DNA of 64,000 bases from Escherichia phage Turkey5, in sequence record PQ471516.1. One strand, written 5' to 3'. This document shows, piece after piece, positions 60,016 through 60,345 of this stretch (the stretch's first letter is position 1; every line of letters begins with the position of its first letter). The notes beneath the pieces were generated by a model, which did not search any database, was not told the origin of the DNA, and worked only from the letters and a program-made list of their open reading frames with translations. The position numbers and the translations under genes are program-made.

Positions 60016-60345
60016 ATGTGCGATTTGAAACCAATAGTTGTTAACAAATACAAAGAACAGTATGATGTGTACATTGGTCGTGGGTCGAAATGGGGAAATC
60101 CATTCACCCACATTAAAGACAAGGAAACTAAGGCAGAATTCATTGTTGCTACCCGTGAAGAGTCCATTGAGAAGTTCAGAGACTATATTCTTGAACGTAT
60201 CGAAAAGGGTGAAGTCCAAATTGATGAACTCCTTGAACTCACTGGGAAACGTCTTGGTTGCTTTTGTAAGCCCAAATCATGTCATGGTGATGTTCTTGTT
60301 GAAATAGTGAGTGCTATACTAGATGAACTATCAGACGATAATTAA
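60016..60345 (+). CDS. DUF4326-like conserved protein (start at ATG 60016; track start 59953)
   Basis: YIGRGSKWGNPF and GCFCKPKSCHGDVL motifs; AAGG RBS. Confidence 0.5.
   Translation: MCDLKPIVVNKYKEQYDVYIGRGSKWGNPFTHIKDKETKAEFIVATREESIEKFRDYILERIEKGEVQIDELLELTGKRLGCFCKPKSCHGDVLVEIVSAILDELSDDN

What the first reader, a model, noticed from the sequence alone, without database searches (positions are those of the whole stretch)
60016..60345. DUF4326-like gene nested between nrdD and nrdG
A 109-aa ORF with GRGSKWGNPF and C-x-C-x-P-x-x-C-H-G motifs sits between the anaerobic RNR catalytic and activase genes, overlapping nrdG by about 20 nt. I recall this family being linked to ADP-ribose or NAD-related processing in conflict systems, which would tie it to the Sir2/Nudix/NMNAT theme. 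Alternatively it may be an RNR accessory factor.
Basis: partly seen in the sequence, partly recalled or inferred. Interest (0 to 1): 0.4.

Follow-up and report, generated by a model that had tools for sequence, protein, structure and literature searches.

The report
DUF4326 (T4 NrdA.1-family) gene inside nrdD-nrdG
A small, strongly conserved phage gene of the widespread but biochemically untested DUF4326 family (the family of phage T4's NrdA.1) sits inside the anaerobic ribonucleotide reductase operon of this jumbo coliphage; the gene is real, but it is an already catalogued kind and its position next to the reductase genes is specific to a few phage lineages.

Summary
A 109-aa ORF (60016-60345, +) lies 7 nt after nrdD, overlaps nrdG by 23 nt, carries both quoted motifs and matches Pfam DUF4326 (E=7.5e-25). 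It is under strong purifying selection (dN/dS 0.035).

The window is an Asteriusvirus-type jumbo coliphage. The nrdD-DUF4326-nrdG order is kept across this clade and in Klebsiella phage K64-1, and one relative already annotates the gene as DUF4326.

The family is very large (16,642 clusters at 50% identity; 2,282 phage records) and includes T4-type NrdA.1. Adjacency to reductase genes occurs in only two lineages: T4-like phages (class Ia nrdAB) and Asterius/Alcyoneus (class III). It is absent from 10 other sampled phage genera or lineages, 80 viral-metagenome loci and 80 cellular loci. Phage N4 has the gene but no reductase.

Fusions to NADAR and SLOG domains are reproduced here. So are weak profile links to DUF488 and a top (weak) structural hit to RapZ. 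These fit the published prediction of a Cys-based enzyme acting on ribose-linked phosphates of ADP-ribose or nucleotide derivatives, or on nucleic-acid ends. No biochemistry exists.

Verdict: a real gene of a known kind, function predicted only, moderate-to-low interest.

The parts
58043..58065 (+). Terminator-like hairpin upstream of nrdD; likely 5' boundary of the three-gene unit
   Evidence: Consensus scan. Pattern match only.
58206..60008 (+). nrdD, class III (anaerobic) ribonucleotide reductase catalytic subunit, 600 aa
   Evidence: Pfam NRDD E=4.3e-161 and Gly_radical E=2.7e-21; PHROG 487.
60007..60010 (+). AAGG Shine-Dalgarno-like element overlapping the nrdD stop codon, 5 nt before the ATG of the DUF4326 gene
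   Evidence: Read from the sequence; inference.
60016..60345 (+). DUF4326 / NrdA.1-family gene, 109 aa, stand-alone single domain
   Evidence: Pfam PF14216 E=7.5e-25; PHROG 464 E=6e-42. It is 99% identical to the JNE01 protein. dN/dS is 0.035. The AlphaFold2 model has pLDDT 92.
60076..60105 (+). N-terminal family motif G-R-G-S-K-W-G-N-P-F (residues 21-30); R22 and N28 are invariant in 84 diverse members
60259..60288 (+). C-terminal family motif C-F-C-K-P-K-S-C-H-G (residues 82-91). C82, C84, C89 and H90 are invariant. The motif lies between predicted strand 79-82 and helix 90-107 and is the putative active or metal site.
   Evidence: This region gives the weak matches to Pfam DUF488-N3a.
60323..60345 (+). 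23-nt overlap between the end of the DUF4326 gene and the start of nrdG (possible translational coupling)
   Evidence: The same overlap is present in fEgEco12 and K64-1.
60323..60793 (+). nrdG, radical-SAM activase of the class III reductase, 156 aa
   Evidence: Pfam Fer4_12 E=1.2e-51 and Radical_SAM. The full-length N-terminus is conserved in K64-1.
60799..60817 (+). Terminator-like GC-rich hairpin followed by a T-run, 6 nt after the nrdG stop; likely 3' boundary of the unit
   Evidence: Pattern match only.

Best explanation
**What it is (shown).** This is a genuine, expressed-type protein-coding gene for a stand-alone DUF4326 domain. It belongs to the same family as T4-type NrdA.1. It is embedded in the nrdD-nrdG transcription unit of an Asteriusvirus-type jumbo phage and probably translationally coupled to it.

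**What it most likely does (inferred).**
- The protein is a small enzyme of the RapZ-C / DUF488 / DUF4326 group. 
- Its active site is formed by the invariant C-x-C-x-P-x-x-C-H loop, which sits between a beta-strand and a helix, together with invariant R22 and N28.
- The substrate is a phosphate or sugar-phosphate group attached to ribose. This could be an ADP-ribose- or nucleotide-derived small molecule, or a nucleic-acid end.

**Why it sits between nrdD and nrdG (inferred).** The position gives co-expression with nucleotide-metabolism genes. It does not indicate a dedicated role in ribonucleotide reduction.

**Shown versus inferred.**
- Shown: gene reality, family membership, synteny, domain fusions, lack of family-wide linkage to reductase genes.
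- Inferred: chemistry, substrate, biological role.
For: **Family and constraint**
- Pfam hit and motifs.
- dN/dS 0.035.
- 43% identity to RB32 NrdA.1, E about 1e-20.

**Operon**
- The order nrdD-X-nrdG and the 23-nt overlap are conserved in the Asterius clade and in K64-1.
- Terminator-like hairpins lie on both sides and none lies inside.

**Not reductase-specific**
- 0 of 80 viral-metagenome loci and 0 of 80 cellular loci have NrdA, NrdB, NrdD or NrdG within 6 kb.
- No adjacency in Mimasvirus, Kuttervirus, Vequintavirus, Certrevirus, N4, Thalassavirus, Alexandravirus, Pseudomonas phage Milchi, Rhizobium phage TM40, or two Straboviridae.
- The whole genome of an N4 isolate has the gene and no reductase.
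- Of 2,257 phage records with nrdG, 69 have NrdG >=60% identical to the window's. The two of these listed in the sample (JNE01, ph0011) carry the gene beside nrdG. In lower-identity rows nrdG mostly abuts nrdD or a homing endonuclease.

**Nucleotide / ADP-ribose / nucleic-acid theme**
- Fusions: NADAR-DUF4326, DUF4326-SLOG (YpsA), mSLOG-DUF4326, DUF4326-RNase H.
- A macrodomain gene lies two genes away in N4.
- Sporadic neighbours: cREC_REC, SLOG, PNKP, RNA ligases, a PRPP-synthetase-like protein.
- A conserved bacterial operon DuOB-DUF488-mSLOG/DUF4326 in nine loci.

**Relation to DUF488 and RapZ**
- 28 of 84 diverse members give weak hits to Pfam DUF488-N3a (best E=8.3e-4). In the three members inspected these hits fall on the C-terminal motif region.

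**Literature.** The published predictions agree.
Against: - **No experimental data.** None was found for any DUF4326, NrdA.1 or DUF488 protein in the searched library.
- **Negative profile comparisons.** hhalign against the single sequences of YeaO, RapZ and YbiA gave nothing.
- **A metal site is equally possible.** Three invariant cysteines plus a histidine in a C-x-C-x4-C-H arrangement are as compatible with a zinc or other metal site as with a single nucleophilic cysteine. I could not inspect model coordinates.
- **Reductase adjacency does recur.** Three distinct arrangements exist: upstream of nrdA, downstream of nrdB, and between nrdD and nrdG. This leaves room for a real link to deoxynucleotide synthesis.
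- **No background control.** The frequencies of the recurring neighbours were not compared with a background.
Confidence: 0.5

Rival explanations
1. It is a ribonucleotide-reductase-linked factor. The protein would support deoxynucleotide synthesis directly, for example as a thiol/redox or metal-handling partner, or as an enzyme acting on reductase substrates, products or inhibitors. That would explain why it is built into reductase operons.
For: - It lies immediately next to reductase genes in three different arrangements, involving two mechanistically different reductase classes.
- Arrangement 1: td-(x)-X-nrdA-nrdB in Tequatrovirus, Dhakavirus and Lazarusvirus.
- Arrangement 2: nrdA-nrdB-X in Slopekvirus and Pseudotevenvirus.
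- Arrangement 3: nrdD-X-nrdG in Asteriusvirus and Alcyoneusvirus.
- Coding regions overlap with nrdA, nrdB or nrdG, which suggests coupled expression.
- Three invariant cysteines could form a redox relay.
Against: - No reductase gene lies within 6 kb in 160 metagenomic and genomic loci.
- No adjacency in 12 sampled phages from 10 other genera or lineages plus two Straboviridae.
- N4 has the gene but no reductase.
- In most sampled phage records nrdG abuts nrdD or a homing endonuclease, with no DUF4326 gene listed at the match.
- T4-like phages keep the gene at nrdAB while their own nrdD-nrdG pair lacks it.
- The fusion partners are NADAR, SLOG and RNase H. No reductase, thioredoxin or flavodoxin domain appeared among the ten long proteins examined.
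Confidence: 0.13
2. It is mainly a small zinc-binding (C-x-C-x4-C-H) protein that binds nucleic acid or another protein. It would act as a regulator or adaptor rather than as an enzyme.
For: - All three cysteines and the histidine are 100% invariant across 84 diverse members.
- In E. coli YeaO, a DUF488 protein, the three cysteine positions appear to be lost together while the histidine stays. This is my by-eye alignment to the translation.
- The closest, though weak, solved structure is RapZ, an RNase adaptor.
- The bacterial operon partner is a dual-OB-fold protein.
Against: - Other polar residues outside the Cys/His cluster are invariant or nearly so (R22, N28, R47). The degree of conservation (60-70% identity across many metagenomic homologues) is more typical of an enzyme pocket.
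- Repeated fusion to catalytic NADAR and SLOG domains suggests successive steps on one substrate.
- Pfam itself labels the related DUF488-N3a subclade 'active'.
Confidence: 0.2
3. It is a divergent, minimal NADAR-type N-glycosidase that removes ADP-ribose from bases or cleaves ribosyl-base bonds.
Against: - hhalign against YbiA gives a probability below 1%.
- None of 84 members hits Pfam NADAR even at E<=10.
- NADAR occurs fused to DUF4326 as a separate domain (P0188).
- The Cys/His motif has no NADAR counterpart.
Confidence: 0.04
4. It is a selfish or decaying insert, like the homing-endonuclease genes that often sit between phage reductase genes, with no function for the phage.
For: Homing endonuclease genes do occupy the same kind of position next to nrdG or nrdB in other phages.
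Against: - No nuclease domain was found.
- dN/dS is 0.035, and the protein is 78% identical to its K64-1 counterpart, more than NrdD (71%) or NrdG (72%).
- The position is fixed across the whole clade.
- The family is enormous and conserved.
Confidence: 0.02

Closest known systems
T4-type NrdA.1 (uncharacterised ORF upstream of nrdA in Tequatrovirus, e.g. RB32 YP_803168.1)
   Same: - Same Pfam family (E=3.8e-21 for RB32 NrdA.1).
- 43% identity over 97 residues.
- Same C-x-C-x-P-x-x-C-H-G-D motif.
- Also a small stand-alone protein whose coding region overlaps an adjacent reductase gene.
   Different: - NrdA.1 sits before the class Ia nrdA, not between class III nrdD and nrdG.
- It lacks the THIKDKETKAEF segment.
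- Its N-terminal motif is H-R-G-T-F-W-G-N-Y instead of G-R-G-S-K-W-G-N-P.
DUF4326 domains fused to NADAR, SLOG or Macro in phages and giant viruses (Iyer et al. 2021, PMC7824862; Iyer et al. 2022, PMC9503650)
   Same: Same domain. The published prediction is processing of ribose-linked phosphates of ADP-ribose derivatives. The NADAR and SLOG fusions were reproduced here.
   Different: The window protein is a single domain with no fused partner. Its immediate neighbours are reductase genes, not NAD/ADP-ribose genes.
DUF488 (PF04343 / PF22751 'active DUF488-N3 subclade'; E. coli YeaO; PADLOC candidate PDC-M45C)
   Same: - Shared C-terminal strand - C-x-[C/E]-x-x-P-x-x-C-H - helix motif.
- 28 of 84 DUF4326 members weakly hit PF22751.
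- The two families co-occur in one bacterial operon.
   Different: - They are separate Pfam families.
- The window protein itself gives no DUF488 hit (part A).
- hhalign against YeaO is negative.
- DUF488 is mostly bacterial and archaeal and is also uncharacterised.
RapZ C-terminal domain (E. coli RNase adaptor, PDB 5o5q)

Membership tests
Pfam DUF4326 (PF14216) | Profile HMM score above the curated gathering threshold over the whole domain | tested here: met
   87.8 bits against a cut-off of 25; residues 9-96 match profile positions 4-82 of 82.
Pfam DUF4326 (PF14216) | N-terminal [G]-R-x-S-x-W-G-N-P motif with invariant Arg and Asn | tested here: met
   GRGSKWGNPF at residues 21-30. R22 and N28 are invariant in alignment A2.
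Pfam DUF4326 (PF14216) | C-terminal C-x-C-x-P-x-x-C-H motif | tested here: met
   CFCKPKSCH at residues 82-90. C82, C84, C89 and H90 are invariant in 84 diverse members.
Pfam DUF4326 (PF14216) | Predicted fold matches other family members | tested here: met
   37 BFVD hits at E<=1e-3. Those that carry a name are mostly labelled DUF4326, and the best has TM 0.89 and rmsd 1.0. The model has pLDDT 92.
T4 NrdA.1 family | Significant direct sequence similarity to a Tequatrovirus nrdA.1 product | tested here: met
   tblastn against RB32 nrdA.1 gives 43% identity and E=1.4e-20. RB32 NrdA.1 is itself PF14216.
[quoted passage not shown] | Detectable profile relationship to DUF488 | tested here: inconclusive
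   28 of 84 members hit PF22751, with best E=8.3e-4; in three members inspected the hit covers the C-terminal motif only. hhalign of A2 against the single YeaO sequence is negative. The window protein itself does not hit.
[quoted passage not shown] | Structural similarity to RapZ-C or to rhodanese/phosphatase folds | tested here: inconclusive
[quoted passage not shown] | Conserved cysteine at the end of a beta-strand, followed by a loop and a helix (P-loop-like cradle) | tested here: met
   Predicted strand 79-82, C82/C84, loop 85-89, helix 90-107, with invariant cysteines. Catalytic use of the cysteine cannot be tested here.
[quoted passage not shown] | Phosphatase or phosphotransfer activity on sugar-phosphate substrates | not testable with these tools
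   Needs biochemistry. No published assay was found.
NADAR (PF08719) | Profile match or clear fold match to YbiA/NADAR | tested here: not met
Dedicated ribonucleotide reductase accessory protein | Conserved genomic linkage to reductase genes across independent lineages carrying the family | tested here: not met
   Linkage is seen only in Straboviridae and in Asterius/Alcyoneus. It is absent from 160 loci and 12 other sampled phages, and N4 has no reductase.
Dedicated ribonucleotide reductase accessory protein | Homology to known accessory or redox partners (NrdI flavodoxin, NrdH/thioredoxin, NrdR) | tested here: not met
   Pfam, PHROG and NCBIfam give only DUF4326 or unknown function. The PHROG label 'NrdA-like' appears to derive from the gene name nrdA.1 (my inference).
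Homing endonuclease insert between reductase genes | HNH, GIY-YIG or LAGLIDADG nuclease domain; patchy presence among close relatives | tested here: not met
   No nuclease domain was found. The region, gene included, is covered in the 31 close relatives that cover >=80% of the 3-kb query.

The most novel reading that the evidence does not exclude
DUF4326/NrdA.1 is a so far unrecognised auxiliary enzyme of phage deoxynucleotide synthesis. It would have been recruited independently to class Ia (nrdAB) and class III (nrdDG) reductase operons. Possible roles are a thiol/metal-dependent activity that conditions reductase substrates, products or inhibitory nucleotides, or protection of the pathway from host nucleotide-depleting immunity.
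Probability: 0.12. Interest if true: 0.6.

Novelty: already known. Interest (0 to 1): 0.27.

Why it matters
- **Scale of the gap.** DUF4326 is one of the larger uncharacterised phage protein families: 16,642 clusters at 50% identity and about 4.5% of deposited phage genomes. It is present in model phages of the T4 and N4 types, in giant viruses and in archaeal viruses. No member has a tested activity.
- **What solving it would give.** It would annotate thousands of genes. If the published prediction holds, it would add an enzyme to the NAD/ADP-ribose or nucleic-acid-end conflict toolkit.
- **What this window adds.** The instance adds little that is new. Its value is a clean, tractable example. 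It also prompts the observation that the family has settled next to two different reductase classes.
- **A practical warning.** Labels such as 'NrdA-like ribonucleotide reductase' for these roughly 100-aa proteins are annotation errors that appear to derive from the T4 gene name nrdA.1.

Tried and rejected
- **Sequence searches of solved structures.** phmmer and profile hmmsearch gave no meaningful hit.
- **Foldseek against the PDB.** Nothing below E=3.
- **AFDB50 fold search.** The library was not available.
- **hhalign against single sequences.** The family alignments were compared with E. coli YbiA, YeaO and RapZ. All were negative, and templates of one sequence are too weak for this test.
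- **Homologue search with YeaO.** The aim was to build a DUF488 profile. The 120 listed hits were all >=70% identical orthologues and therefore unusable for remote comparison.
- **Second DUF4326 copy in the window.** None found.
- **fEgEco12 g163 ('ribonucleotide reductase A').** It is not a DUF4326 protein and not a reductase; its only hit is a weak FAD_syn-like match.
- **Literature.** No functional data for DUF4326, nrdA.1 or DUF488 were found. The key classification paper (Burroughs & Aravind 2023, lqad029) is not held, so its content is cited from memory only.
- **NCBIfam and PADLOC.** Neither matches the window protein.
- **Selfish insert.** Considered and rejected on selection and conservation data.
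- **Longer 130-aa GTG-start ORF.** Rejected because it overlaps nrdD and its N-terminus is not conserved.

Full report
**1. The observation**

The ATG is at 60016 and the TAA stop at 60343-60345, giving 109 codons.

nrdD (58206-60008) ends 7 nt upstream. An AAGG Shine-Dalgarno-like element overlaps the nrdD stop codon. nrdG starts at ATG 60323, so the two reading frames overlap by 23 nt.

Both quoted motifs are present: GRGSKWGNPF at residues 21-30 and CFCKPKSCHG at residues 82-91.

The flanking genes are confirmed:
- NrdD: PF13597, E=4e-161, plus the glycyl-radical domain.
- NrdG: Fer4_12, E=1e-51, plus Radical_SAM.

The ORF matches Pfam DUF4326 at 87.8 bits (cut-off 25, E=7.5e-25) and PHROG 464, 'unknown function' (E=6e-42).

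Terminator-like hairpins lie just upstream of nrdD (58043-58065) and just after nrdG (60799-60817), with none in between. The three genes therefore look like one transcription unit. This rests on a pattern match only.

**2. Where the window comes from, and synteny**

The region is 98.7% identical to Escherichia phage vB_EcoM_JNE01 and about 81% identical to the 121Q / PBECO4 / G17 group of Asteriusvirus-type jumbo phages. Of 36 matching records, 31 cover at least 80% of the 3-kb query, gene included.

In fEgEco12 the gene is already annotated 'DUF4326 domain-containing protein', with the same 23-nt overlap with nrdG. The same annotation appears in ph0011.

Klebsiella phage K64-1 (Alcyoneusvirus) keeps the order nrdD - (378-nt spacer) - DUF4326 - nrdG with the same overlap.

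Selection against fEgEco12:

| Gene | dN/dS |
|---|---|
| nrdD | 0.026 |
| DUF4326 | 0.035 |
| nrdG | 0.112 |

Against K64-1 the protein is 78% identical, which is more than NrdD (71%) or NrdG (72%). This is a functional gene under strong constraint, not a decaying insert.

**3. The family**

The word-indexed search found 3,344 homologues. The best 120 listed are nearly all stand-alone proteins of about 100 aa. The exhaustive profile search found 16,642 clusters (at 50% identity) with E<=1e-3.

tblastn finds the protein in 2,282 of 50,697 deposited phage genomes. Among these are the T4-like phages, where the homologue is the gene called nrdA.1.
- In RB32 the order is frd-td-nrdA.2-nrdA.1-nrdA-nrdB, and nrdA.1 overlaps the nrdA start.
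- RB32 NrdA.1 is itself PF14216 and 43% identical to the window protein.

This probably explains the misleading labels 'NrdA-like ribonucleotide reductase' and 'putative NrdA.1' attached to these small proteins.

BFVD hits show the same fold in giant viruses (Pithovirus, Marseillevirus, Pandoravirus) and in haloarchaeal viruses.

Across 84 diverse members the invariant residues are I20, R22, N28, C82, C84, C89 and H90. Nearly invariant are G27, P29, R47, L75, L80, G81, P86 and G91.

**4. Is the reductase neighbourhood meaningful?**

I sampled 19 phages spanning many genera or lineages.

| Arrangement | Lineages |
|---|---|
| td-(x)-X-nrdA-nrdB | Tequatrovirus, Dhakavirus, Lazarusvirus |
| nrdA-nrdB-X-endonuclease-rnlA | Slopekvirus, Pseudotevenvirus |
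| nrdD-X-nrdG | Asteriusvirus, Alcyoneusvirus |
| No reductase neighbour | Ishigurovirus; a Vibrio Straboviridae phage; Mimasvirus CBB (a jumbo phage); Kuttervirus; Vequintavirus; Certrevirus; N4; Thalassavirus; Alexandravirus; Pseudomonas phage Milchi; Rhizobium phage TM40 |

Further tests point the same way:
- None of 80 IMG/VR loci and none of 80 bacterial or archaeal loci has an NrdA, NrdB, NrdD or NrdG homologue within 6 kb.
- The complete genome of an N4 isolate carries the gene but no reductase, either by annotation or by tblastn.
- Of 2,257 phage records with nrdG, 69 have NrdG >=60% identical to the window's. The two listed in the sample (JNE01, ph0011) carry the gene beside nrdG. In lower-identity rows nrdG mostly abuts nrdD directly or a homing endonuclease.

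The placement is therefore lineage-specific: one lineage with class Ia and one with class III. It is not a family property. That it recurs, in three arrangements, is the only hint of a real link to deoxynucleotide synthesis. I give that reading about 0.13.

**5. What the other contexts say**

Domain fusions found among the long representatives:
- NADAR-DUF4326 (P0188).
- DUF4326-YpsA/SLOG (P0170, P0207).
- DUF4326-RNase H (P0125).
- Tandem DUF4326 repeats.

BFVD adds a protein annotated DUF2493 and one annotated 'NADAR domain with protein tyrosine phosphatase', each longer than the matched DUF4326 segment.

In N4 a macrodomain gene lies two genes downstream.

In the IMG/VR loci no neighbour is common. 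The most frequent are listed below.

| Neighbour within 6 kb | Loci (of 80) |
|---|---|
| cREC_REC (cyclic-phosphate-processing receiver) | 6 |
| SLOG / YAcAr | 6 |
| PRPP-synthetase-like protein | 6 |
| PNKP | 5 |
| RNA ligases (two families) | 5 and 4 |

These frequencies were not compared with a background.

In nine loci from diverse, mostly proteobacterial genomes there is a tight three-gene operon: DuOB (dual OB fold) - DUF488 - mSLOG/DUF4326 fusion, with variable flanks. The DuOB and DUF488 genes match the PADLOC candidate defence system PDC-M45.

Nucleotide-pool genes (td, frd, dCMP deaminase, MazG, 5'-deoxynucleotidase) and replication genes are also frequent neighbours.

The common denominator is nucleotide, ADP-ribose or nucleic-acid-end chemistry in virus-host conflict settings. 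This is what Iyer, Burroughs, Aravind and colleagues predicted (PMC7824862, PMC9503650).

Within this window, the Sir2, Nudt16-like Nudix and cREC_REC genes form a cluster at 48963-50611. They lie 9.4-11 kb from the DUF4326 gene and are separated from it by many genes.

**6. Structure and mechanism**

AlphaFold2 on a 61-sequence alignment gives a confident model (pLDDT 92, pTM 0.85). It has short strands, a long helix at 47-64, a strand at 79-82 and a C-terminal helix at 90-107. The invariant C82-x-C84-x-P-x-x-C89-H90 segment forms the loop between that strand and that helix.

No solved structure matches convincingly:
- Foldseek finds nothing.

Scanning 84 diverse members individually against Pfam at a permissive threshold gave a recurrent weak hit. 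It was to PF22751, 'active DUF488-N3 subclade', in 28 members (best E=8.3e-4). In the three members inspected it aligned to the C-terminal motif. No member hit NADAR, and no rhodanese or tyrosine-phosphatase family is among the 25 families listed.

An active DUF488 protein from the bacterial operon shows the related motif C-S-E-H-E-P-H-F-C-H-R.

Together with the RapZ hit, this independently agrees with what I recall of Burroughs & Aravind 2023 (NAR Genom Bioinform lqad029). Its title is confirmed, but the paper is not held. [quoted passage not shown]

My mechanistic proposal is therefore as follows:
- A cysteine (C84 or C82) at the strand end, followed by a phosphate-cradling loop and the helix dipole.
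- H90 in the position where phosphatases have arginine (C84-x5-H90).
- R22, R47 and N28 completing the pocket.
- The substrate is a ribose-linked phosphate.

This is inference. Three invariant cysteines plus a histidine in a C-x-C-x4-C-H arrangement are just as compatible with a zinc site. In that case the protein might be a metalloenzyme or a non-catalytic adaptor (rival, 0.2). I could not examine model coordinates to decide.

**7. Comparison with the known, and novelty**

- **Membership in DUF4326 and the NrdA.1 family** is met on every testable criterion.
- **Membership in the RapZ-C/DUF488/DUF4326 clade** is supported but weak: one criterion met, two inconclusive, and activity untestable.
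- **NADAR membership** is not met.
- **'Reductase accessory protein'** fails the linkage test.

The gene is present at 99% identity in a deposited genome. It is annotated as DUF4326 in relatives, and the family's predicted role is published. I found no paper that remarks on the nrdD-X-nrdG order, but that is a detail of gene order in one clade. I rate it 'already known', with interest 0.27. Most of that interest comes from the fact that a very large family, including genes of T4- and N4-type phages, still has no tested function.

**8. Limits**

- Neighbourhood frequencies were not tested against a background.
- The sample of phage lineages is small.
- Remote-homology tests were limited to single-sequence templates and Pfam HMMs.
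- The AFDB library was unavailable.
- No experiment exists for any member.

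Noticed in passing
window 48963-50611: Three tightly packed genes: Sir2 family (48963-49730), Nudt16-like Nudix (49727-50278) and a cREC_REC 'cyclic-phosphate processing receiver' domain protein (50291-50611). They are followed by a 96-aa ORF with no Pfam match and then PhoH (50950-52389). This looks like an NAD/ADP-ribose or RNA-end module of the phage. cREC_REC genes also recur near DUF4326 genes in 6 of 80 IMG/VR loci.
   Followed up: partly
L155, L156, L169, L170, L171, L175, L176, L177, L178 (about 4400-6240 in most of these loci): A conserved three-gene operon DuOB (PF22557) - DUF488 (active type) - mSLOG/DUF4326 fusion, in diverse mostly proteobacterial genomes with variable flanks. 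The first two genes match the PADLOC candidate defence system PDC-M45 (A and C). The mSLOG-DUF4326 gene matches no PADLOC model.
   Followed up: partly
window 52389-52807, compared with L001 5117-6397: The window lacks a 1,281-nt gene (hypothetical protein WOL22662.1) that its 98.7%-identical relative JNE01 carries just after PhoH. The coordinate offset between the two changes by 1,320 nt across this point.
   Followed up: no
L001 14390-14794 (JNE01), equivalent to window 60389-60793: The JNE01 record annotates nrdG as a 134-aa 'hypothetical protein' starting 66 nt too late. This cuts off the conserved N-terminus that precedes the C-x3-C-x2-C radical-SAM motif. The 156-aa form starting at window 60323 is conserved in fEgEco12 and K64-1.
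   Followed up: yes
L092 2950-3336 (phage ZYD); PHROG 24867; L083 21586-22119 (fEgEco12 g163): Annotation errors. Roughly 100-130-aa DUF4326 proteins are labelled 'NrdA-like ribonucleotide reductase', a name that appears to derive from the T4 gene name nrdA.1. Separately, fEgEco12 g163, labelled 'ribonucleotide reductase A' (177 aa), has no reductase domain and only a weak FAD_syn/nucleotidyltransferase-like hit.
   Followed up: partly
L086 3599-3977 (Klebsiella phage K64-1): A 378-nt unannotated spacer lies between nrdD and the DUF4326 gene, where the Asteriusvirus phages have only 7-8 nt. The DUF4326 and nrdG genes are themselves unannotated in this record.
   Followed up: no
window 56795-57163 and 60898-63597: A small dCMP/cytidine-deaminase-like gene (122 aa, PF00383, E=7e-7) lies about 1 kb upstream of nrdD. 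The 899-aa ORF immediately downstream of nrdG has no Pfam match at all.
   Followed up: no
L103-L113 (Acidobacteria / Pyrinomonadaceae contigs): DUF4326 genes lie in a conserved block with SSB, RNase H, a DUF7831 protein, a sigma-factor-like protein and a 547-aa protein, repeated on several large contigs and twice within the same MAG. This looks like an integrated mobile element or prophage.
   Followed up: no
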